From assembly GCA_041650935.1 (NCBI GenBank), contig JBAZKH010000007.1, positions 41,471-105,470 of the forward strand: a stretch of 64,000 nucleotides of DNA, in the 5' to 3' direction. Every line of letters starts with the position of its first letter. The first letter of the stretch is position 1. The notes under the pieces are model-generated. The model was not told the origin of the DNA, did no database searches, and was given only the letters and a program-made list of their open reading frames with translations. A program made the translations under genes and the position numbers. The stretch is from Candidatus Omnitrophota bacterium. GTDB taxonomy: Bacteria > Omnitrophota > Gorgyraeia > 2-01-FULL-45-10. Shown piece after piece: positions 4,506-58,579 of this stretch.

Positions 4506-4685
4506 ATGACAAAATTGCTCTCGCCTCAAGAATTGTCAGACGTTTTAAGTATAAGCATCGAGACCGTCTATGCGTGGACGTCTCAGAAGAGGATCCCATA
4601 CATCAAGATGGGCAGGCTTGTCCGGTTCAATGCGGATGAGGTGAATAAGTGGCTCGAAAGGCAGAGGGTGGAGGCACAGGAATGA
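4506..4685 (+). CDS. AlpA/Xis-family helix-turn-helix protein (59 aa; below the ORF-track size cutoff)
   Basis: ATG..TGA ORF translating to MTKLLSPQELSDVLSISIETVYAWTSQKRIPYIKMGRLVRFNADEVNKWLERQRVEAQE (AlpA/excisionase HTH pattern). It lies immediately upstream of the integrase. Confidence 0.6.
   Translation: MTKLLSPQELSDVLSISIETVYAWTSQKRIPYIKMGRLVRFNADEVNKWLERQRVEAQE
4641..4671 (+). repeat. 31-bp direct repeat copy 1 (3' end of the xis-like gene)
   Basis: GTGAATAAGTGGCTCGAAAGGCAGAGGGTGG. It is 30/31 identical to 4976-5006. Confidence 0.7.
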
Positions 4686-4975: not shown

Positions 4976-5006
4976 GTGAATAAGTGGCTCGAAAGACAGA
5001 GGGTGG
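4976..5006 (+). repeat. 31-bp direct repeat copy 2
   Basis: GTGAATAAGTGGCTCGAAAGACAGAGGGTGG. It would encode VNKWLERQRV if read in frame (a xis 3' remnant). Confidence 0.7.
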
Positions 5007-23390: not shown

Positions 23391-25136
23391 ATGAACTTGT
23401 ATCCAAAGAAATCGATAGTGAAATACATAATCCTTCCGGCAATCCTTTTTGTCTTTATTTTCCCCGCTAAAGTTTCGGCCCAGAATTTACCTCCCGGCCA
23501 GGACACCGAGGCGAGCGCGGGCCGGTTCGTCGAACAGGTCGAACGCAAAAAGGCCGAGCTGCAGACTAAAAAAGTAAAAGCTCCCGAAATAGAGGTCGAA
23601 GAGCAGAAGAAGGAGGCGCCGCCTGTTTCCGGCGCTACATTCGTTCTTAGGGATGTCAAGATAGCCGGATTGACTATCTTCAAGCCGGAAGATTTCTCCG
23701 ACGCATACCGGAAATATATCGATAAAGAAATTACTTTCAAAGACGTAAACGATATAGTCGAAGCTATCAAGGCGAAGTATAAAGAGGGGGGCTTCCTTAC
23801 CACCAACGTCTACATCCCCGAACAGCAGATAATGGGGGGCGTAGTCGAGATAAGGGTGGTAGAAGGCAAGATGGGGAAGCTGTTGATAGAGGGTAACAAG
23901 TGGTTCACTAAAGCCATAGTAGAGAAGTATTTCCACACAAAAAAAAATGAAATTTTGAACATAAAAAAACTCCAGAGGGATCTTCTCAGGCTTAACCAGA
24001 ACCCCGATCTCGAAGTTAAGACCGTTATAGCGGCCGGCGAAGAACCTCAGACCTCCGATATAGTCCTGAAAGTCAAAGATAAATTTCCTTACCATGTCGG
24101 TACCGCGGTTGATAACCAGGGCACGCGGTTATCGGGTAAGTACAGGGCGTCGGTCTCCGGGCGCAGCACAAATCTCACCGCGAATAACGATTTCATGTTT
24201 TTTAACTCGGTAATGTCCGCGGATTCCACAGGTGACTTCGTGACCTATGTCGTCCCTATGGATACGTACGGCACTAAATTCGGTTTCGACTTCTCATACT
24301 TTACTTCTAAAGTCGGCAGGGAGTTCAGGGGCTTCGATATAGCAGGTAATAGCTGGTACTACATTCCGCACGTTACGGGCGAAATATATCTTACGGAGAA
24401 TATGCAGATATCGGCCGATGCCGGCATTAGGATAGAGTCGATCAAAAAATTTGCGCATGCCGATATTACTGTCGATGACCAGTTGCGTCTCCCGTATTTC
24501 AAGCTGGACGTATCGCGGACTGATGCTTTCTTCGGCGGAGGGCAGACGAGTTTTTCTCCGGAATTTAGTTTTGGAACCGCCAAGTTTTTGGGAGCTTCAA
24601 CCGAAGATCATGCGAAAGCCTCCAGAGCCGGTACCGGCGGGTACTTTTTTAAGTATAGTCATTCCATACGGCGCGTACAAAGAATGATGTGGGAAAGCTA
24701 TATGCTTGTACGCCACCAGTTCCAGGGGACGACCCATACACTGCCGTCGTCGGAACAATTCCAGCTGGGCGGTGAAAGCAGTATAAGGGGTTATCCCGAA
24801 GGCGATTATCTTGCGGATATCGGAGCAAGTATCAGCGCGGATTGGATATTCCCGATGTACTGGATACCCAAGGAGTATAAGCTGCCGTATTCCGACACCC
24901 CGCTAAGGAACCAGATAGAGCCGGTCATATTTGTGGATATGGGCGGAGGAAAGATAGAGAGAAAACTGGTCGGCGAAAAAGGCTATAAGTTTCTTATGGG
25001 TGCAGGCGGGGGTGTGAGGATAAACCTGTACAATAAGTTCAGCGCAAGGATCGAATTTGCCCAGGCCATAGGCGCCCATCCGACGGCAAATTCCGGGCCG
25101 TCAACCTTCCATATATCCATTAATTTCGAAATGTAA
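23391..25136 (+). CDS. ShlB/FhaC/HecB-family outer-membrane transporter (TpsB; POTRA + beta-barrel)
   Basis: Signal peptide, POTRA region and C-terminal barrel ending in F. No TpsA partner is visible. Confidence 0.55.
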   Translation: MNLYPKKSIVKYIILPAILFVFIFPAKVSAQNLPPGQDTEASAGRFVEQVERKKAELQTKKVKAPEIEVEEQKKEAPPVSGATFVLRDVKIAGLTIFKPEDFSDAYRKYIDKEITFKDVNDIVEAIKAKYKEGGFLTTNVYIPEQQIMGGVVEIRVVEGKMGKLLIEGNKWFTKAIVEKYFHTKKNEILNIKKLQRDLLRLNQNPDLEVKTVIAAGEEPQTSDIVLKVKDKFPYHVGTAVDNQGTRLSGKYRASVSGRSTNLTANNDFMFFNSVMSADSTGDFVTYVVPMDTYGTKFGFDFSYFTSKVGREFRGFDIAGNSWYYIPHVTGEIYLTENMQISADAGIRIESIKKFAHADITVDDQLRLPYFKLDVSRTDAFFGGGQTSFSPEFSFGTAKFLGASTEDHAKASRAGTGGYFFKYSHSIRRVQRMMWESYMLVRHQFQGTTHTLPSSEQFQLGGESSIRGYPEGDYLADIGASISADWIFPMYWIPKEYKLPYSDTPLRNQIEPVIFVDMGGGKIERKLVGEKGYKFLMGAGGGVRINLYNKFSARIEFAQAIGAHPTANSGPSTFHISINFEM

Positions 25137-25173: not shown

Positions 25174-25215
25174 AGTGAAGCTCCACCGCCTTATTAGCGG
25201 CGGCTTCTTTTTTTA
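25174..25215. repeat. palindromic terminator-like element, copy 1
   Basis: AGTGAAGCTCCACCGCCTTATTAGCGGCGGCTTCTTTTTTTA. Its reverse complement recurs at 34513-34554 with 1 mismatch. Confidence 0.6.
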
Positions 25216-25346
25216 CAGGGTTTCTCTCTTTCGGCTGCGCGAAACCCTGAACCGAAAGCCATTCTCACCACGTCTTTACAGGCATGGCTTTCTGGTTCAT
25301 GGGTAAAACTTATTACGCTGCCATATCCGTGAATAGATCGATTTGT

Positions 25347-25364
25347 TTCCACCCCGGGGTGGAA
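25347..25364. repeat. 18-bp perfect palindrome TTCCACCCCGGGGTGGAA
   Basis: An identical copy sits inside comEC at 50737-50754. Confidence 0.7.
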
Positions 25365-33499: not shown

Positions 33500-33669
33500 A
33501 GCTGCCAAAGAAATTTAGTTCCTAACACTTGCCAAAATCAAATTTTGTGGTAAACTTATTCCATAGTGACGTTTTTGTTCTATGGTCAGGCAAAGGCAGC
33601 CCCTCGGCGCGGGACTTAGATATTAAGGTATTCCCTCGACACGGGACTCAAAACAGTAGTGTCTCGGGA

Positions 33670-33736
33670 TGATTTGCAAGACTAAGGTAATGGCAAATCA
33701 CGGGACGATTTGTCAGACTTAGATAACAACAAATCG
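33670..33736 (+). repeat. tandem hairpin leader elements (family C/D) ending in the Shine-Dalgarno sequence
   Basis: TGATTTGC/GCAAATCA and CGATTTGT/ACAAATCG stems. The last 45 nt are near-identical to the rpsT leader. Confidence 0.6.
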
Positions 33737-33745
33737 GAGGTGGGT

Positions 33746-34420
33746 ATGGATTGGTTGACGTTCGTTGTAGTTGATCCTGTGAAGGCGATGTTGATAAAGA
33801 TATGGAGTTATGTTCCTGCCATCGCAGGCGCGATTGTCATCCTAATCGTAGGCTGGCTTATAGCAAAAGTGCTGGAAATGGTGATTGTCAGGGTTCTTAA
33901 AGCCGTTCGCCTGGATATGGCAAGCGATAAGGCGGGTCTTTCGAACATTCTGGCGCAGGGAGAGATAAAGCTGAGTCTCTCGGAGCTGATAGGGGCTGTA
34001 ATATATTGGATCATTATACTTGTAGTGATTGCGACCGCGCTTGGTACGCTCAACCTTACCATTGCCGCGGAGCTCGTCGCACGGCTCATAGAATATGTGC
34101 CTAATATACTGGGCGCGATATTTATCCTGATAGTCGGAACTTTTGTGGCGGATTTTGTAGCTACGATAGTGCGGACAACGGCAGGAAACGCCGGAATAAA
34201 GAAGGCAAGTCTTCTTGCCAAGGCGACGAAGATCGTCCTTGTGATCTTTGCGGCAGTTATCGCGATCGAACAATTGAAGATAGCTTCGACGCTGATAGTC
34301 CTGGCTGTTAATATAATTCTTATATCTTTAGGTATCGGCATAGCCCTGGCGTTCGGTCTTGGCTGTAAAGATATAGCCGGTAAATTTGTTCAGGATCTCA
34401 TCAACGATCTGAAGAAATAG
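33746..34420 (+). CDS. membrane protein with internally duplicated conserved-TM-helix repeats (MscS-N/CmpX-like)
   Basis: Start reassigned to the ATG 6 nt after GGAGGT (the ORF-track start 33710 is a TTG inside the hairpin). Two homologous halves. Confidence 0.55.
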   Translation: MDWLTFVVVDPVKAMLIKIWSYVPAIAGAIVILIVGWLIAKVLEMVIVRVLKAVRLDMASDKAGLSNILAQGEIKLSLSELIGAVIYWIIILVVIATALGTLNLTIAAELVARLIEYVPNILGAIFILIVGTFVADFVATIVRTTAGNAGIKKASLLAKATKIVLVIFAAVIAIEQLKIASTLIVLAVNIILISLGIGIALAFGLGCKDIAGKFVQDLINDLKK

Positions 34421-34512: not shown

Positions 34513-34554
34513 TAAAAAAAGAAGCCACCGCTAATAAGGCGGTGGAGCTTCACT
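34513..34554. repeat. palindromic terminator-like element, copy 2 (inverted)
   Basis: Reverse complement of 25174-25215 with one mismatch. Confidence 0.6.
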
Positions 34555-35710: not shown

Positions 35711-35819
35711 ATAGATAAATAAAAAGCCGATTATTGCATGCCTTGAGTGTGAAAAAAGTGGCCTGGCCTATTTTTTTGTGTTAAAATACCATCGCTAAAA
35801 TTAACCGGAGGATTGCACG

Positions 35820-49719: not shown

Positions 49720-50088
49720 ATGAAACTAGAACGCCCCGAAAGGATCATATTGGTATTTCTCACCGGGGCGCTTATTTTAGGGATAACGGTCTCGGCCATC
49801 CGGAAGATTAAATCACCCGCCGCGGTAACGATCGAAAAATTCGATACCGAAAGTTACAAGGAACCTGCTGCCTCTATACCCGGCGCCCCGGTCGAAAAGA
49901 TAGACATAAATGTCGCCGGCCGGGAAGAATTCGAAAAGATAAAGGGTATAGGCAAGACGATTGCCGGCCGGATAGTGGAATACCGCTACCGGAACGGGCC
50001 GTTCGATTCGATCGACGAGCTGAAGAACGTGAAGGGCCTGGGCGCTGCGCTCTTCGAGAAGATAAAAGATAGAATAAAAGTTGAATAA
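49720..50088 (+). CDS. comEA: competence protein ComEA (HhH DNA-binding)
   Basis: IDINVAGREEFEKIKGIGKTIAGRIVEYR...LKNVKGLG. Confidence 0.75.
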   Translation: MKLERPERIILVFLTGALILGITVSAIRKIKSPAAVTIEKFDTESYKEPAASIPGAPVEKIDINVAGREEFEKIKGIGKTIAGRIVEYRYRNGPFDSIDELKNVKGLGAALFEKIKDRIKVE

Positions 50089-50092
50089 CAGC

Positions 50093-52585
50093 ATGAACCC
50101 TGAGCAAGGTCGAGGCATGAAGCGCCCCGCTCTATACATCCTCATCCCGTTTTGCCTGGGAATAGCGTTCGCGGGATTAGTTAAACCGCCGATACTTTTC
50201 GTTCTTCTTTCAGCCGCTATTTTTGTCATTGCCGCAATAATTTTTTCCGCGCGCAATACCATCTCGCATATAATGCTTTTTCTGGGAGTCTTTTTTACGG
50301 GCGCCAGCCTGTATCTGAATTCTAGTATCCTTCCGGCCGATCACATATCAAGATTTATCGCCGCCGGCGGTAAAAGTACCGTCGCTATAAAAGGTACGGT
50401 TGCAGACGACCCGATTACCGCCGTCACATCGTATAGGACGATTAAGACGAGCTTTACGCTTAAGGCGAGCGCTGTCAAATACATGCTTCCCGGGCAGGAT
50501 ATTTTTTCCGGGTGGCGTAATACCCGGGGGTTAGTGAAGGTCAGCCTCTTCTCGCGGAGCGCCCCCCGCGTCTTATTTGGCGATGAAGTTGTCGTCGAGG
50601 GTGAGCTTGCAAAGCCGTATAGCTTAAATAACCCCGGGCTATTTAGTTATGCCGGGTATCTTGAGTTAAAGGATATTTATTGCTGTTTTACGGTGAAAGA
50701 CGGGGACAGCCTTATTCCATCCCGGGGTGTAAAAATTTCCACCCCGGGGTGGAAATCAGCGGCATACAGGGTCCGGCGCGGCATCAGGGCTTCGATAGAC
50801 GAATATTTGGATATGCCCTATAGCGGTTTCCTGAAAGCCATACTTATAGGCGACAGGAGTACTTTAAAAGACAGGATACGCGATGACTTTGTCCATACCG
50901 GCACGGTCCACATACTGGCTATAAGCGGTCTCAATATCGGGTTGATAGCGGCCGTATTTATGACGGTATTCGCATTTTGCGGTGCGCCGAAGAAGATCAA
51001 CCTTGCCGTTACGATGCCACTCCTCATTTTATACTATTTTATCGGCGGTTCGAACCCGCCGATATTGAGGGCGGTCATAATGTTTGCCATTTGTGCCGTC
51101 GGATATATAATAAATAGGGATACAGATGTTTTGAATTCTCTCGCCATTGCTGCGCTCGCGATACTTTTATGGAACCCGAAAGAACTGTATGACCCCAGTT
51201 TCCAGTTGTCGTTTGCCTCTGTAGCAGGGATCTTGATATTCAGCTCCAGGATAGAGGCGGCGCTTCTTTCTGCCGTGCCGGAAGAAAGGCGGCGGAAGGG
51301 GTGGGGCAGGGTTTTAAGGTACATCGCCGCCGGCGTTGCGGTATCGGTTGCGGCGTGGCTGGGAACTTTCCCCATAATTGCCGCATATTTTAACATCGTC
51401 TCACCGGTCTCCGTTATCGCCAATCTGATAGTTGTCCCGGTCCTCTTTTTTCTTATGGCCTCAGCGTTCGTATTTCTCGCGCTATCTTTTACGTTTGCCT
51501 ATGCCGCCGCCGGCCTTGCGCACGTTTTGCAATTAACCGAGAAGATGCTCTTTGTCGTGAACGGATTTCTGGCTGCCGTGCCTTTCGCGTTCTTCCGGAC
51601 CGCCGCCCCGTCACCCGGATTTACGTTTTTATTTTACGGCGCGGTCTCTCTTCTGGTAATGCCCGCGTCTTTTACATTTAAAAACTTCAGGATAAAAAAG
51701 ACGCTTATCGTTATCATTATCCTCGCGCTATTTAACATTCAGGTATGGTCATCCGTCCTGTCCGGCAGGGCGGACGGCGCCCGGATAACATTTTTCGATG
51801 TCGGGCAGGGAGACGCCGCGTTTTTGGAGTTTCCCGACGGAAATATCCTTCTAGACGGCGGTTCGGGCGGCATCGATGAGAAGCTTGATATGGGCGAGTC
51901 CGTCATCGCGCCGTCTTTGTGGAACCGCGGAATAAAGCGGATCGATCTTTTGATGATTACGCATCTTCACGAGGATCATCTGGGAGGCATACTGTATATC
52001 CTGAAAAATTTTGCCGTAGGATGCGTGATCGATAATGGCGCATACGCGGACGCCGGAGGCGGCGTATATGAAGAATACCGGCGCATTATCAGGAAGAAAA
52101 ATATCCGCCGGATCGCGGCGCGGGAAGGGGATATCGTAAAAGCCTTTCAAGATGTCCGGGTATTTGTTTTAAACCCCGCGCGGAGCGATAAAATTTTGAC
52201 GGATTCCAACGACAACTCTCTTGTTCTCAAGATTGCATACCGGAATTATACTTTCCTTGTCTGCGGCGATATCAGGGAAAATGCGATATCGCGCCTCCTG
52301 CCGTATGGTAATTTTTTACGGTCCGATCTTTTGAAAGTACCTCACCATGGCGGCTTTTTGGGTAACGATAAGACCGTTGGAGAGTTCTTCCGGCTTGTCT
52401 GTCCGCGCATTTCCGTGATAAGTGTCGGAGCTTCGAATAAGTACGGCATGCCGTCGCGAAAGACTTTAAGGGCCATAGCCGATTCGAAGTCGGACATTTA
52501 TATGACAAAGGATAGCGGTGCCATAGAGATAAATGTTTCTTCCGGGCAAGAGAAAGTAAGGGAAGCAATTCTTAAGAAAAACTAG
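50093..52585 (+). CDS. comEC: ComEC/Rec2 DNA internalisation channel with a C-terminal metallo-beta-lactamase domain
   Basis: Polytopic Competence domain. HLHEDHLGG. Confidence 0.8.
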   Translation: MNPEQGRGMKRPALYILIPFCLGIAFAGLVKPPILFVLLSAAIFVIAAIIFSARNTISHIMLFLGVFFTGASLYLNSSILPADHISRFIAAGGKSTVAIKGTVADDPITAVTSYRTIKTSFTLKASAVKYMLPGQDIFSGWRNTRGLVKVSLFSRSAPRVLFGDEVVVEGELAKPYSLNNPGLFSYAGYLELKDIYCCFTVKDGDSLIPSRGVKISTPGWKSAAYRVRRGIRASIDEYLDMPYSGFLKAILIGDRSTLKDRIRDDFVHTGTVHILAISGLNIGLIAAVFMTVFAFCGAPKKINLAVTMPLLILYYFIGGSNPPILRAVIMFAICAVGYIINRDTDVLNSLAIAALAILLWNPKELYDPSFQLSFASVAGILIFSSRIEAALLSAVPEERRRKGWGRVLRYIAAGVAVSVAAWLGTFPIIAAYFNIVSPVSVIANLIVVPVLFFLMASAFVFLALSFTFAYAAAGLAHVLQLTEKMLFVVNGFLAAVPFAFFRTAAPSPGFTFLFYGAVSLLVMPASFTFKNFRIKKTLIVIIILALFNIQVWSSVLSGRADGARITFFDVGQGDAAFLEFPDGNILLDGGSGGIDEKLDMGESVIAPSLWNRGIKRIDLLMITHLHEDHLGGILYILKNFAVGCVIDNGAYADAGGGVYEEYRRIIRKKNIRRIAAREGDIVKAFQDVRVFVLNPARSDKILTDSNDNSLVLKIAYRNYTFLVCGDIRENAISRLLPYGNFLRSDLLKVPHHGGFLGNDKTVGEFFRLVCPRISVISVGASNKYGMPSRKTLRAIADSKSDIYMTKDSGAIEINVSSGQEKVREAILKKN
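50716..50754. repeat. tandem palindromes TTCCATCCCGGGGTGTAA + TTCCACCCCGGGGTGGAA inside comEC (in frame)
   Basis: Encodes IPSRGVKISTPGWKS in the ComEC linker. The second copy is identical to 25347-25364. Confidence 0.7.
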
Positions 52586-55623: not shown

Positions 55624-56594
55624 ATTCTAAAAATTCGGTTTTTTTGTTCGCGGGCAGCGATAGTTATTCCAAAGAACAGGCGATAAAGAAGCTCGAGCTC
55701 ACTCTCCTGGATACCTCGGCGCGCGAGCTTGATTATAAGGTGTTTGACGGCGCCAGCGCTTCGGCGCGCGAAATCCTCGACCATATCTCCACCATTCCCT
55801 TCATGGCCCCCAGGCGGTTCGCGGTCATAAAGAATTTCGAAGAGCTTTCCGCCGAGGATAATAAACGCATTGCCAGCTATATAAAGTCACCCCTGAAAAG
55901 CGCATGTCTTGTCCTTGACTCCGCGGACGACTCTTTCATAAAGGATCATCCCGAATTGGCGCGGCATATTATGGTAAGCCGGTTCGGTTCGAATGTGAGC
56001 GATTTCCAGTTCCAGTCACGCGTAAAAGATATCTTATCGGCTGTTGGCGGCGGTAAGAATATAAGCGCGGATGCCGCCAGGGCGCTTAAAGAGCTGTGCG
56101 GCGGCGACATGGGTTCCGCGTCGCAGGAACTGCATAAACTTGCGTCTTTTGTGGGTTCGCGCGCCACGATCGAACTATCGGATGTAGAAGAGGCGGTAGG
56201 ACGGAACCTGACCGCGTCCGCATTCGACCTTACCGACGCGATCGAAGAAGGTAATTTGAAAAAAGCGCTTTTTATTATTTCAGAACTTATATTATTGGGC
56301 AAAAAACATTATGAGATAGTGGGTCTCTTATGCTGGCAGACGAAGAGGTTCTTCAAGGGAAGGGCTCTTCTGGAGCGGAGGATGGCGGATCCGCAGATTG
56401 CCGAAGCGCTTAAGATCGGCATGCGTTACCAGGCGAGGTTTTTTAAGCAGATAAAATCCTCGACCCTGTCTCAGATAGAGTCGAGGATGAAGGTCCTTTT
56501 GGATGCGGATATGGATATAAAGAGGACCAGGTACAATCCGGCGGTTGCGCTGGAATTTGCCGTTATAAAATTATGCCTTGGGGCCGCGCGGTAA
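55617..56594 (+). CDS. holA: DNA polymerase III delta subunit
   Basis: Start at MVNSKNSVFLFAGSDSY overlapping the previous stop. Delta-subunit length and pattern. Confidence 0.65.
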   Translation: MVNSKNSVFLFAGSDSYSKEQAIKKLELTLLDTSARELDYKVFDGASASAREILDHISTIPFMAPRRFAVIKNFEELSAEDNKRIASYIKSPLKSACLVLDSADDSFIKDHPELARHIMVSRFGSNVSDFQFQSRVKDILSAVGGGKNISADAARALKELCGGDMGSASQELHKLASFVGSRATIELSDVEEAVGRNLTASAFDLTDAIEEGNLKKALFIISELILLGKKHYEIVGLLCWQTKRFFKGRALLERRMADPQIAEALKIGMRYQARFFKQIKSSTLSQIESRMKVLLDADMDIKRTRYNPAVALEFAVIKLCLGAAR

Positions 56595-56843
56595 AAGCTT
56601 CTTCATCAGGCGGGATATCTTCCTTGCCGCTGTATTCTTTTTGATCACGTCTTTTGAGGCGGCCTTATCCAATTTAGAAACGAGCAGGGATAATGCCTTC
56701 TTTGCCTCGTCGGTTTTGTTTGCCTTCACAAGGCTCTCGAAATCTTTAATGGATGTTCTCAGGTCCGATTTAGTCGAGATGTTCTTGAAGTGGCGTTTCT
56801 TGGCTTTTCGCAGTTCTTTATACGCAGTTCTTTCTCTTGGCAA
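56571..56843 (-). CDS. rpsT: 30S ribosomal protein S20
   Basis: KELRKAKKRH...NTAARKISRL S20 pattern. TTG start 7 nt after GGAGGT. Confidence 0.85.
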   Translation of the reverse strand: MPRERTAYKELRKAKKRHFKNISTKSDLRTSIKDFESLVKANKTDEAKKALSLLVSKLDKAASKDVIKKNTAARKISRLMKKLLPRGPKA

Positions 56844-56853
56844 TTGCTACCTC

Positions 56854-56958
56854 CGATTTGTTATTATCTAAGTCTGACAAATCGTCCCTAGGTGCACTAA
56901 CTTGAGTCCGGCACCGTGGGACTACCGTAATTTGTACTTAAGTCTGACAAATCGTCCC
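56854..56958 (-). repeat. hairpin leader elements (family C/D); the proximal copy abuts the rpsT Shine-Dalgarno sequence
   Basis: Minus-strand read GGGACGATTTGTCAGACTTAGATAATAACAAATCGGAGGT. A second unit lies 70 bp upstream with nested covarying inner stems. Confidence 0.6.
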
Positions 56959-57046
56959 GAGCTGCCGCTGTCTAACTCCAGCAGCGAGGGACTACTGTAA
57001 AGACAAAATTATATCACGTGAGTAATTTGAGGTCAACATTTTTTAT

Positions 57047-58579
57047 ATGAGTAAAAAGAGCCTGATACGATTTACGGGAATAATAGGTTTCGCCACGGCG
57101 ACGAGCAGGGCGCTGGGGTTCGTAAGAGATATCGTCATAGCGCGGTTCTTCGGTACGGCCATCTATGCCCAGGCGTTCGTTATAGCTTTCAGGATACCGA
57201 ACCTGCTGCGCGATCTTGTCGGCGAAGGCGCGACGAATTCGGCTTTTGTGCCTGTCCTGACGGACGAATTGACCAGGAAAGGCAGGAAAGATTTCTTTAA
57301 GCTTGCCCAGGTCATATTAAACATAATGTTCTGGGTCTTGTGTGTACTTACGCTTTTAGGCATACTCCTCTCGCCGCTGATCGTGCGGCTGATAGCCCCG
57401 GGCTTCGCCGCCGATATCGAAAAATTCGAAGTGACTGTGCGGCTCACAAGGATACTATTTCCGTTCCTGATCCTGGTCGGTTTATGGGCATACGCCATGG
57501 GGGTGCTGAATTCGCTCGGGATATTTGCCGCGCCCGCCTTCGGCCCCAGTGTCATGAACCTTTCCATGATAATATGCGCTTCGGCCTTCGGCGAAAACGT
57601 ATTCGGCCTTGCGGCAGGTGTCCTGGCAGGAGGATTTTTACAACTCGCAATACAGATAAAACCGCTGGTGCGCAGCGGCTGGCGGGCGCGCCTGACTAGG
57701 GAATTTACTCATCCGCAGGCGCGGCGGGTGGGGATGCTCCTCGTTCCCCGCGCGCTGGGCGCTTGCGTATATCAGGTCAACGTCTTTATCAGCACTATCC
57801 TTGCGTCGCTGTCGAGCATCGTCGGTGAAGGCGCCGTAGCCGCTTTATATTACGCCAACCGTGTATGGCAATTGCCGCTGGCGATATTCGGAATCGCTTT
57901 GGCGCAGGCCGCCCTTCCCATGATGTCCAGGCACGTCGCATTGAACGAAAAGGAAGATCTTAAAAAGATGCTGGCATTTTCTCTCAAGGTGCTCTTCTTC
58001 ATCCTCGTTCCTGCCACCGTCGGGCTCATGGTTCTGTGCGAGCCCATAACTCAGGTGCTTTTCCAGCGCGGCGCGTTTACGGCTTATTCGACGCGGATAA
58101 CGGCAACGGCGCTCTTTTATTATGCCGTAGGATTGATTGCCTGCGGCGGTATCAAGATCCTCGTAAATACGTTCTATTCGATGCACGATACCATGACTCC
58201 GGTGAAGACGGCGCTGGCTGCTTTAGTATTGAATATCGTGCTCAACGTGGTCCTGATGTTTCCCATGAAGCTTGGCGGGCTGGCCCTCGCCACTTCGGTA
58301 GCGGCATTTTTGAATTTCCTGATCTTATATGTGATCCTTGCAAGGCGTATAGGCGATTTTGGCACGGCATCGATCGCCGATACTTTCTTCAGGGTTTTGC
58401 TCGCAAGCCTCGTTATGGGCACGGTCTTAAGGCTTCTTATTGTGCGTATGCCTGATTTCACGTTCGTTTCGATAGGGATACTTATAGCCGCGGGGATAAC
58501 GGTCTTCCTGGGCTCAAGCTATCTTTTTGGGGTAAACGAGCTGAAGGAGTTCTTTGCGTGGATCTCAAGGCGAAAGTAA
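57047..58579 (+). CDS. murJ: lipid II flippase MurJ
   Basis: MurJ/MviN N-terminal signature RALGFVRD...FGT..YAQAF. Confidence 0.9.
   Translation: MSKKSLIRFTGIIGFATATSRALGFVRDIVIARFFGTAIYAQAFVIAFRIPNLLRDLVGEGATNSAFVPVLTDELTRKGRKDFFKLAQVILNIMFWVLCVLTLLGILLSPLIVRLIAPGFAADIEKFEVTVRLTRILFPFLILVGLWAYAMGVLNSLGIFAAPAFGPSVMNLSMIICASAFGENVFGLAAGVLAGGFLQLAIQIKPLVRSGWRARLTREFTHPQARRVGMLLVPRALGACVYQVNVFISTILASLSSIVGEGAVAALYYANRVWQLPLAIFGIALAQAALPMMSRHVALNEKEDLKKMLAFSLKVLFFILVPATVGLMVLCEPITQVLFQRGAFTAYSTRITATALFYYAVGLIACGGIKILVNTFYSMHDTMTPVKTALAALVLNIVLNVVLMFPMKLGGLALATSVAAFLNFLILYVILARRIGDFGTASIADTFFRVLLASLVMGTVLRLLIVRMPDFTFVSIGILIAAGITVFLGSSYLFGVNELKEFFAWISRRK

What the first reader, a model, noticed from the sequence alone, without database searches (positions are those of the whole stretch)
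56854..56958. rpsT-murJ divergent region built from two 70-bp structured repeat units
Each unit is TAAGTCTGACAAATCGTCCC + 29-30 nt + GGGACTAC(C/T)GTAA. The outer GTCCC...GGGAC arms bracket an inner 5-bp hairpin whose sequence differs between units but whose pairing is preserved. The junction GGGACTACCGTAATTTGTACTTAAGTCTGACAAATCGTCCC is itself an imperfect palindrome centred on ACTTAAGT. The same motif, reverse-complemented, is at 33696-33716. This is not a known riboswitch layout and is too regular to be random.
Basis: seen in the sequence. Interest (0 to 1): 0.6.

Follow-up and report, generated by a model that had tools for sequence, protein, structure and literature searches.

The report
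Repeated structured leader before rpsT
The two 70-base repeats are tandem copies of a small folded RNA-leader cassette that, in one narrow group of uncultivated Omnitrophota bacteria, sits between the promoter and the ribosome-binding site of several unrelated genes; it is a real, conserved and undescribed repeat family, but its job is still inferred rather than shown.

Summary
Window 56848-57000 holds two tandem ~70-nt units, and related copies lie at 33598-33740.

The informative strand is the minus strand. The units lie downstream of a near-consensus promoter (57036-57008) that is conserved in all relatives, and they end exactly at the rpsT Shine-Dalgarno. They therefore form a ~158-nt rpsT 5' leader.

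Each unit has three parts:
- an outer stem GUCCC/GGGAC with a UC/UC internal loop;
- a covarying inner hairpin;
- an AU-rich hairpin GAUUUGU-15 nt-ACAAAUC that abuts GGAGG.

The same cassette precedes an MscS-like gene in the window. In related Omnitrophota DNA it precedes PpiD-like, SecD, DUF2934 and DUF7847 genes. It is always in sense orientation and always abuts the SD.

Orthologous leaders carry 0, 1 or 2 units. The conserved flanks of the unit are 84-100% identical between two genomes whose four-fold sites are only 53% identical. This indicates sequence-level selection.

There is no Rfam match, no terminal inverted repeats and no target-site duplication, and the REPs next to RAYT genes in relatives are different sequences.

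Best reading: a dispersed, portable 5'-leader RNA cassette, probably a docking or stability module for post-transcriptional control. A selfish hairpin repeat is the main rival. Interest is moderate.

The parts
57008..57036 (-). Sigma-70-type promoter of rpsT: TTGACC, 17-nt spacer, TG-extended TATAAT. The inferred transcription start is near 57000-57001.
   Evidence: One search gives 11 of 12 hexamer matches plus an upstream TG. The promoter is conserved in all seven orthologous murJ-rpsT spacers. The transcription start is inferred, not measured.
56926..56995 (-). Distal leader unit. P1 is AGUCCC 56993-56988 paired with GGGAC 56958-54. P1b is GCUGC/GCAGC. P2 is GAUUUGU 56953-47, an 11-nt loop, and ACAAAUU 56935-29.
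   Evidence: The covariance models score it 65-69 bits, E about 1e-14. Its inner part is closest (79%) to the single rpsT unit of MAG STD1_81, so it is the orthologous copy.
56848..56925 (-). Proximal leader unit. P1 is AGUCCC 56923-18 paired with GGGAC 56888-84. P1b is GGUGC/GCACC. P2 is GAUUUGU 56883-77, loop CAGACUUAGAUAAUA, and ACAAAUC 56861-55. It abuts the SD.
   Evidence: The covariance models score it 89-92 bits, E about 1e-20. A 40-nt stretch is 98% identical to 33702-33741 (pair I2).
56850..56854 (-). Shine-Dalgarno GGAGG of rpsT, 6 nt before the TTG start codon at 56843-56841.
   Evidence: Read directly from the sequence.
56571..56843 (-). rpsT (ribosomal protein S20, 90 aa, TTG start), the gene served by the leader.
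   Evidence: (PF01649).
33529..33556 (+). Promoter-like site TTGCCA, 16-nt spacer, TG-extended TAAACT, for the MscS-like gene.
   Evidence: The block CTTGCCAAAA...TTTTGTGGTAAACTT is conserved in relatives both with and without the element.
33598..33627 (+). Truncated unit: AGCCCC-UC-GGCGC followed by the loop GGGACUUAGAUAUUAAG. The 3' half is missing.
   Evidence: Read from the sequence by comparison with the clean single unit of STD1_81 at the same locus. This reading is an inference.
33628..33706 (+). Full unit with variant stems: UCCC/GGGA for P1, GACAC/GUGUC for P1b, GAUUUGC/GCAAAUC for P2.
   Evidence: The covariance models score it 78-81 bits, E about 1e-17. It supplies the one compensatory change seen in P2.
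33707..33740 (+). Extra P2 hairpin (GAUUUGU, loop CAGACUUAGAUAACA, ACAAAUC) followed by the SD GGAGG at 33736-33740. The ATG is at 33746.
   Evidence: The models score it 32-33 bits as a local match; sequence.
33746..34420 (+). 224-aa membrane protein with the MscS-type conserved TM helix, the second gene in the window served by the cassette.
   Evidence: (PF05552, E 2.7e-22).

Best explanation
The two repeats are tandem copies of a ~70-nt structured cassette in the 5' untranslated leader of rpsT. The sense strand is the minus strand.

The cassette belongs to a small family of dispersed repeats found in a narrow clade of Candidatus Omnitrophota. In that clade it occupies the space between the transcription start (or the upstream cistron) and the Shine-Dalgarno of unrelated genes.

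Each cassette folds into three elements:
- a GC-rich outer stem (GUCCC/GGGAC) with a UC/UC internal loop;
- a freely covarying inner hairpin with a ~15-nt loop;
- an AU-rich hairpin (GAUUUGU/ACAAAUC, loop CAGACUUAGAUAAYA) placed directly against GGAGG.

The following steps are shown by the data: the position relative to conserved promoters and SDs; the constant sense orientation; conserved pairing with compensatory changes; strong sequence conservation of the flanks; and gain, loss and copy-number change between orthologous leaders.

The following steps are inferred. The cassette acts in the mRNA as a cis module for post-transcriptional control. It adds a stable hairpin near the 5' end. It also presents sequence-invariant surfaces next to the SD: three regularly placed GGA motifs, one of them the SD itself, and an anti-SD-like CCUC. 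These would be read by a lineage-specific trans-acting factor, so that translation, secretion and envelope genes are co-regulated. New copies arise by tandem duplication and by ectopic recombination between leaders, not by classical cut-and-paste transposition.
For: Position and orientation:
- A promoter lies upstream and the SD lies immediately downstream of the units at rpsT and at the MscS-like gene.
- All 10 units at 7 loci are in sense orientation and end at GGAGG, 5-8 nt before a start codon.
- The two window loci have opposite orientation relative to a uniformly positive GC skew, but the same orientation relative to their genes.

Structure:
- 97.6% of cells are paired, against 35-50% when partners are slid.
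- Five pairs show compensatory changes, and 0 of 500 shuffles reach the observed covariation score.
- RNAalifold independently predicts the same fold.

Selection:
- The conserved flanks of the unit are 84-100% identical between the window genome and MAG STD1_81.
- Four-fold degenerate sites in five shared genes are only 53% identical.

Dynamics between orthologous leaders:
- rpsT carries 2, 1 or 0 units.
- The MscS-like gene carries about 2.5 units, 1 unit, a variant unit, or none.
- The PpiD-like gene has a unit in STD1_81 but none in the window genome.
- A 40-nt stretch is 98% identical between the two window loci.

Other:
- In L006 the unit fills the yajC-secD spacer with no sense-strand promoter. 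This links its role to the SD rather than only to the 5' end.
- GGA recurs at three fixed alignment columns: 32 occurrences against 17 expected. CCUC occurs 12 times against 1.4 expected.
Against: - There are no expression data; the transcription start is only predicted.
- Predicted SD accessibility is not improved by the cassette and is, if anything, lower.
- P2 is thermodynamically weak and is supported by only one compensatory pair.
- Wobble and mismatch patterns do not discriminate between the two strands.
- No candidate binding protein was found; CsrA and Hfq queries gave no hits in the ~300 kb of DNA held.
- Only 7 loci are known, several found through a sequence pattern that biases the sample towards conserved copies.
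- Sequence and hairpin conservation would equally be expected for a repeat maintained by a transposase.
Confidence: 0.55

Rival explanations
1. The unit is a selfish, non-autonomous hairpin repeat of the REP/REPIN or IS200/IS605 'PATE' type. Its hairpins would be read as single-stranded DNA by a tyrosine (Y1) transposase encoded elsewhere in the genome. Its target would lie just 5' of GGAG, which would place surviving copies in front of genes. Any effect on expression would be a by-product.
For: - Copy number and presence vary between close relatives.
- Hairpins are conserved with invariant outer sequence and a variable centre.
- There are no TIRs or TSDs, as expected for Y1-mobilised elements.
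- GTAG or TTAC precedes four of the ten units.
- RAYT-like Y1 genes are common in this clade.
- A de Bruijn contig breaks inside the repeat.
Against: - The REP arrays flanking the RAYT-like genes in relatives are different sequences: GTAGGGGACGTTTAAACGTCCCCTAC and CCTACGCGGTAAC.
- The window contains no Y1 gene.
- Copies are tandem-direct, not inverted doublets.
- Orientation follows the gene, not the replication strand.
- Every copy ends at an SD, and none was found at a 3' end or between convergent genes in about 400 kb searched.
- At the rpsT, MscS-like and PpiD-like loci the leader looks replaced rather than simply interrupted.
Confidence: 0.25
2. The unit is a ligand-sensing riboswitch, or a tandem aptamer for a global signal. 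This would resemble c-di-GMP-I riboswitches, which sit before many unrelated genes and occur in tandem.
For: - It lies in 5' UTRs, in tandem arrangements, with conserved loop and internal-loop nucleotides and covarying stems.
- An anti-SD-like CCUC sits inside P1, which could provide an expression platform.
- It matches no known RNA class.
Against: - It is absent from the orthologous leaders of relatives with 83-88% identical proteins, and even from the PpiD-like leader of the window genome itself.
- The P1 and P2 stems are conserved in sequence rather than merely in pairing.
- The inner hairpin can shrink to a 3-nt loop, as in the STD1_81 PpiD-like copy.
- The fold is two simple hairpins with no multi-helix junction.
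- The long identical stretches between loci point to recent copying.
Confidence: 0.08
3. The unit is a DNA operator array. The inverted repeats CGATTTGT-N15-ACAAATCG and GTCCC...GGGAC would be binding sites for a transcription factor that blocks RNA polymerase between the -10 element and the start codon.
For: - The arms are sequence-invariant.
- The position just downstream of promoters is typical of repressor operators.
Against: - The compensatory changes that keep the inner hairpin paired with unrelated sequences have no meaning for a double-stranded operator.
- The unit also occurs inside an operon with no promoter nearby.
- The half-site spacing is unusually wide and includes a variable loop.
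Confidence: 0.07

Closest known systems
Reused upstream regions ('putative mobile promoters', PMC3575422)
   Same: Highly similar upstream sequence is found in front of non-homologous genes within and between related genomes, which rewires expression without moving the gene.
   Different: Here the repeated part is the transcribed leader, not the promoter. The -35 and -10 elements are locus-specific and are conserved in relatives that lack the cassette.
REP/REPIN elements mobilised by RAYT transposases (PMC3116915, PMC3337134)
   Same: Both are short, GC-stemmed extragenic hairpins with an invariant stem sequence. Both vary in copy number between relatives. RAYT-like genes exist in this clade.
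   Different: REPINs are inverted REP doublets, usually lie at gene 3' ends, occur in tens to hundreds of copies, and have their own RAYT flanked by the same REP. Here the copies are direct, always 5' of genes in sense orientation and against the SD. The RAYT-flanking REPs seen in relatives are other sequences.
Correia repeat-enclosed elements of Neisseria and other co-transcribed MITEs such as BOX, RUP and ERIC (PMC2649163, PMC10969869, PMC3049150)
   Same: These are small dispersed repeats that are co-transcribed with neighbouring genes, fold into hairpins and can change mRNA processing or stability. They are polymorphic between strains.
   Different: CREE and other MITEs have terminal inverted repeats and target-site duplications and insert in either orientation. 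This unit has neither TIRs nor TSDs and has a fixed orientation and a fixed junction with the SD.
CsrA/Rsm-type leaders with multiple GGA sites (my own knowledge of the family)
   Same: GGA motifs recur at regular spacing: one in a hairpin loop, one between hairpins, and one overlapping the SD. The spacings of 25 and 33 nt are within the range a CsrA dimer can bridge.
   Different: The loops are ~15 nt rather than the 5-6-nt ANGGAN loops. The P2 loops carry AGA rather than GGA. No csrA gene was seen in the sequence available. This is a resemblance only.
5'-terminal stabiliser hairpins such as the ompA leader (my own knowledge)
   Same: A stable hairpin lies within 2-8 nt of the predicted 5' end at four promoter-proximal copies.
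   Different: Stabilisers need structure, not a conserved sequence. One copy here is internal to an operon.

Membership tests
MITE (including Correia/CREE) | Terminal inverted repeats at both ends of the unit | tested here: not met
   The 5' end of the unit is GTAGTCCCTCG and the 3' end is ACAAATCGGAGG. These are not reverse complements of each other. The inverted repeats that exist are internal stems.
MITE (including Correia/CREE) | Target-site duplication flanking the insertion | tested here: not met
   Filled and empty alleles were compared at rpsT, the MscS-like gene and the PpiD-like gene. No duplicated flank was found, and the upstream leader is replaced or diverged.
MITE (including Correia/CREE) | Presence/absence polymorphism between related genomes and multiple copies per genome | tested here: met
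   Orthologous leaders carry 0, 1 or 2 units. There are 2 loci in the 64-kb window and 3 loci in MAG STD1_81.
REP/REPIN-RAYT system | A RAYT (Y1 transposase) gene flanked by the same repeat | tested here: not met
   There is no Y1 homologue in the window. The RAYT-like genes in relatives are flanked by unrelated REPs. Whole genomes were not available, so a cognate gene elsewhere is not excluded.
REP/REPIN-RAYT system | Inverted doublets of a 20-40-nt palindrome headed by GTAG, mostly at 3' ends of genes | tested here: not met
   Copies are direct tandems in 5' leaders. GTAG precedes only 4 of 10 units.
Any Rfam family (riboswitches, leaders, sRNAs) | A match to a curated covariance model | tested here: not met
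   At gathering thresholds only 4 tRNAs match in the window. No match with E up to 10 was found in 56800-57060.
Riboswitch (generic) | An aptamer conserved in orthologous leaders across relatives, with ligand binding | tested here: not met
   The unit is absent from the rpsT and MscS-like leaders of relatives with 83-88% identical proteins. Ligand binding cannot be tested with these tools.
CsrA/Rsm-regulated leader | GGA motifs in hairpin loops plus one overlapping the SD, and a csrA gene in the genome | tested here: inconclusive
   GGA occurs at three fixed columns, 32 observed against 17 expected. The loops are atypically large, and no CsrA hit was found in about 300 kb. The whole genome was not searched.
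Putative mobile promoter (promoter reuse) | The repeated upstream sequence contains the promoter | tested here: not met
   The promoters are locus-specific and are shared with relatives that lack the unit. The repeat begins downstream of the -10 element.
Structured cis-acting 5'-UTR RNA element (generic) | Lies in the transcribed leader in sense orientation, with pairing conserved by compensatory change | tested here: met
   Position and orientation come; covariation. Transcription itself was not tested, because no expression data were available.

The most novel reading that the evidence does not exclude
The cassette is the recognition element of a previously unknown post-transcriptional regulon in Omnitrophota. 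A lineage-specific RNA-binding protein, or a ligand, would read the invariant GUCCCUC...CUCGGGACGAUUUGU...ACAAAUCGGAGG surfaces. This would co-control ribosomal (S20), Sec/chaperone (SecD, PpiD-like) and membrane genes. The regulon would grow and shrink by swapping whole 5' leaders between genes.
Probability: 0.2. Interest if true: 0.7.

Novelty: new variant of a known kind. Interest (0 to 1): 0.45.

Why it matters
Short dispersed repeats in bacteria are usually seen as selfish DNA lying at gene ends. This family differs in four ways:
- it is confined to 5' leaders;
- it always reads in the sense direction;
- it always butts against the ribosome-binding site;
- its sequence is conserved far above the neutral background.

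It would therefore be a clear natural case of a portable leader cassette that lets unrelated genes acquire the same post-transcriptional behaviour.

It also offers one of the first candidate cis-regulatory RNAs in Omnitrophota, a phylum with no cultured model and almost no known regulation.

There is a practical point too. The repeat breaks short-read assemblies and can shift gene-start and spacer annotations.

Tried and rejected
- **Rfam:** searches at gathering thresholds and at E up to 10 found nothing relevant.
- **Genome and metagenome pattern scans:**
  - L001, L003 and L004 are chance matches; L001 and L003 sit in what reads as coding sequence.
  - The true hits were L002, L005, L006 and L007.
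  - The pattern was too strict to count diverged copies such as the STD1_81 rpsT and MscS-like units.
- **Viral contig scan:** 0 hits.
- **First home-made hairpin scan:** far too permissive and not used.
- **Covariance models R1 and R2:** run with filters off over the window and about 350 kb of related loci, they found no copies beyond those already known. A weak hit in L015 (14.7 bits) is an ordinary hairpin on the wrong strand.
- **Strand test by G-U versus A-C mismatches:** 2 against 3, so not informative.
- **SD-insulation idea:** predicted SD accessibility is not higher with the cassette, so the idea was dropped.
- **CsrA and Hfq tblastn:** nothing found in the DNA held. A literature search for CsrA in Omnitrophota was uninformative, and no paper describing the element was found.
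- **ops/RfaH-like GGTAG motif:** considered and rejected, because it is not conserved in L005-L007.
- **attC and terminator readings:** rejected from the sequence, since there is no GTTRRRY core and no U-tract.
- **S20 homologue P0011:** the contigs have no DNA on file, so the 134-nt versus 63-nt spacer difference could not be inspected.

Full report
**1. The observation**

The region between rpsT (56571-56843, minus strand, TTG start) and murJ (57047-58579, plus strand) is 203 nt long. It contains two direct repeats with a 70-nt period.

The 20-mer TAAGTCTGACAAATCGTCCC occurs at 56869 and 56939, and reverse-complemented at 33702-33721. No occurrence is expected by chance. Both units have a 29-nt centre whose 5-bp stems differ but pair. 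Two details need correcting: the feature runs from 56848 to 57000, and the third motif is offset by 6 nt from the coordinates given.

**2. Strand and position**

A near-consensus sigma-70 promoter lies on the minus strand at 57036-57008: TTGACC, a 17-nt spacer, and a TG-extended TATAAT, matching 11 of 12 hexamer positions. No comparable promoter was found on the plus strand.

Transcription from this promoter would start near 57000. Both units would then lie in a ~158-nt rpsT leader.

Read on the minus strand, each unit has this layout:
- (G)UAGUCCC;
- UC;
- a variable stem, a ~15-nt loop and the returning stem;
- UC;
- GGGAC;
- GAUUUGU, the loop CAGACUUAGAUAAUA, and ACAAAUC.

The proximal unit is followed directly by GGAGG (56854-56850) and, 6 nt later, by the start codon.

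**3. A family, not a local oddity**

The same 3' module and SD precede a 224-aa MscS-type membrane protein at 33746 (PF05552). A 40-nt stretch is 98% identical between the two window loci.

The source organism is a Candidatus Omnitrophota MAG. Pattern scans of genome and metagenome collections found four further true copies:
- before a PpiD-like chaperone gene in MAG STD1_81 (L002);
- before a DUF2934 gene (L005, which also shows the end of an upstream tandem unit);
- in the yajC-secD spacer (L006);
- before a DUF7847 membrane protein (L007).

Covariance models built from the copies score the known units at 65-97 bits. They find nothing else in the window or in about 350 kb of related DNA. Rfam has no match, even at E up to 10.

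**4. Structure**

On a MAFFT alignment of ten units, the proposed fold (P1, P1b, P2) is paired in 97.6% of cells. When the partners are slid by 1-3 columns, only 35-50% of cells pair.

Five pairs show compensatory double changes, four of them in P1b and one in P2. None of 500 shuffles reaches the observed covariation score. RNAalifold predicts the same structure independently.

There are three caveats:
- P1 and most of P2 never vary, so they are supported by sequence conservation rather than by covariation.
- P2 is thermodynamically weak.
- Wobble pairs do not tell the two strands apart.

The assignment to RNA therefore rests on position and orientation, not on the pairing pattern.

**5. Comparative series**

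murJ-rpsT synteny and the rpsT promoter are conserved in all relatives examined. The leaders differ, as the table shows.

| Genome or locus | S20 identity to window | rpsT leader |
|---|---|---|
| Window | 100% | 2 units |
| STD1_81 (L010) | 89% | 1 unit, with a diverged P2 loop |
| GCA_028699255.1 (L013) | 83% | only a weak P2-like stretch |
| L012, L014, L015, L017 | 75-87% | 26-45-nt AU-rich leaders, no unit |

The MscS-like gene shows a parallel series behind its own conserved promoter:
- about 2.5 units in the window;
- one clean unit in STD1_81;
- a variant unit in GCA_028699255.1;
- no unit in L019-L023.

The PpiD-like gene goes the other way. The unit is present in STD1_81 but absent from the window organism's ortholog (L026, from the same sequencing run as a contig carrying the identical S20 protein).

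At the rpsT and MscS-like loci the 3' boundary of the element is exactly 5' of GGAG(G). The sequence from the SD to the start codon is shared by filled and empty alleles. The upstream leader is replaced or diverged, with no target-site duplication and no terminal inverted repeats. At the PpiD-like locus the SD region itself also differs between the filled and empty alleles, so the whole leader looks swapped there.

The distal rpsT unit is closest to the single STD1_81 rpsT unit: 79% identity in the variable centre. The proximal unit is closest to MscS-type copies and shares the 40-nt identity with the window's MscS-like leader. This points to ectopic copying between leaders rather than a simple local duplication.

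**6. Selection**

Between the window genome and STD1_81, four-fold degenerate sites in five shared genes are 53% identical (276 of 523). The unit's flanks (P1, GGGACGAUUUGU, ACAAAUCGGAGG) are 84-100% identical across loci and across the two genomes.

Something therefore reads the sequence, not merely the shape.

**7. Mechanism**

Four observations favour a role in the transcript:
- Every copy is in sense orientation and abuts an SD.
- The two window loci are opposite with respect to replication (GC skew is positive throughout) but identical with respect to their genes.
- One copy sits inside an operon, 11 nt after the yajC stop codon, with no sense-strand promoter. This ties the element to translation initiation rather than only to the 5' end.
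- GGA recurs at three fixed positions, namely the 5' side of the P1b loop, the GGGAC, and the SD: 32 occurrences against 17 expected. An anti-SD-like CCUC lies in P1: 12 occurrences against 1.4 expected.

Against a simple 'insulator' role, predicted SD accessibility is not increased by the cassette. What the cassette clearly adds is 25-55 kcal/mol of structure, starting 2-8 nt from the predicted 5' end.

My best reading (confidence about 0.55) is a portable leader cassette that serves as a docking and stability module for post-transcriptional control.

The main rival (about 0.25) is a selfish hairpin repeat of the REP/PATE type. It is weakened because the REPs flanking the RAYT-like genes in relatives are unrelated sequences, and because the window contains no such gene. 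Whole genomes were not searchable here, so the rival is weakened rather than excluded.

The riboswitch and DNA-operator readings are less likely, for the reasons given under the rival explanations.

**8. Novelty and verdict**

The family matches no curated RNA family. It fails the defining tests for MITE/CREE, for REPIN-RAYT and for 'mobile promoters', although it resembles each in some respects.

I classify it as a new variant of a known kind: short interspersed structured repeats that are co-transcribed with genes. It is distinguished by strict confinement to 5' leaders and by a fixed junction with the Shine-Dalgarno.

Interest is moderate (0.45). The element is real, conserved and undescribed, and lies in a phylum with no known regulation. 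Its function is inferred, its copy number is unknown, and the general phenomenon is familiar.

Noticed in passing
window 25174-25215 and 34513-34554: A 42-nt terminator-like hairpin with a T-run occurs twice in inverted orientation at 98% identity. One copy follows the ORF ending at 25136. The other lies between the MscS-like gene and the next, radical-SAM, gene. The MscS-like gene is therefore bracketed by a repeated leader and a repeated terminator.
   Followed up: partly
window 25346-25364, 50714-50732, 50736-50754: The palindromic 19-mer TTTCCACCCCGGGGTGGAA is present three times. Two adjacent copies lie inside the long ORF 50081-52585, which is ComEC-like by synteny with relatives. One copy is intergenic.
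   Followed up: no
window 4641-4671 and 4976-5006: A 31-nt direct repeat, GTGAATAAGTGGCTCGAAAG(G/A)CAGAGGGTGG, occurs twice at 97% identity, 335 nt apart.
   Followed up: no
L019 11931-12476 and L024 12007-12621, compared with window 35711-35819: Relatives carry a RAYT-like Y1 transposase gene flanked by REP arrays (CCTACGAAGTT and CCTACGCGGTAAC types) between the radical-SAM (HemW-like) gene and gpmA. The window has only a 109-nt spacer at that position. L014 has another Y1 gene flanked by GTAGGGGACGTTTAAACGTCCCCTAC hairpins.
   Followed up: partly
ENA contigs carrying S20 protein P0011 (no DNA held): Three contigs encode the identical S20 protein. By their gene calls, the murJ-rpsT spacers are 134, 134 and 63 nt. 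The 71-nt difference equals one unit, so this may be a within-population presence/absence polymorphism.
   Followed up: no
L009 1-36 (Logan contig from SRR8542065): The contig ends inside the proximal unit, starting at TGTCAGACTTAG. This is consistent with the repeat breaking a de Bruijn-graph assembly.
   Followed up: partly
window 56571-56594: The 3' end of rpsT (minus strand) overlaps the 3' end of the convergent holA-like ORF (DNA polymerase III delta) by about 24 nt. The overlap is conserved in relatives.
   Followed up: no
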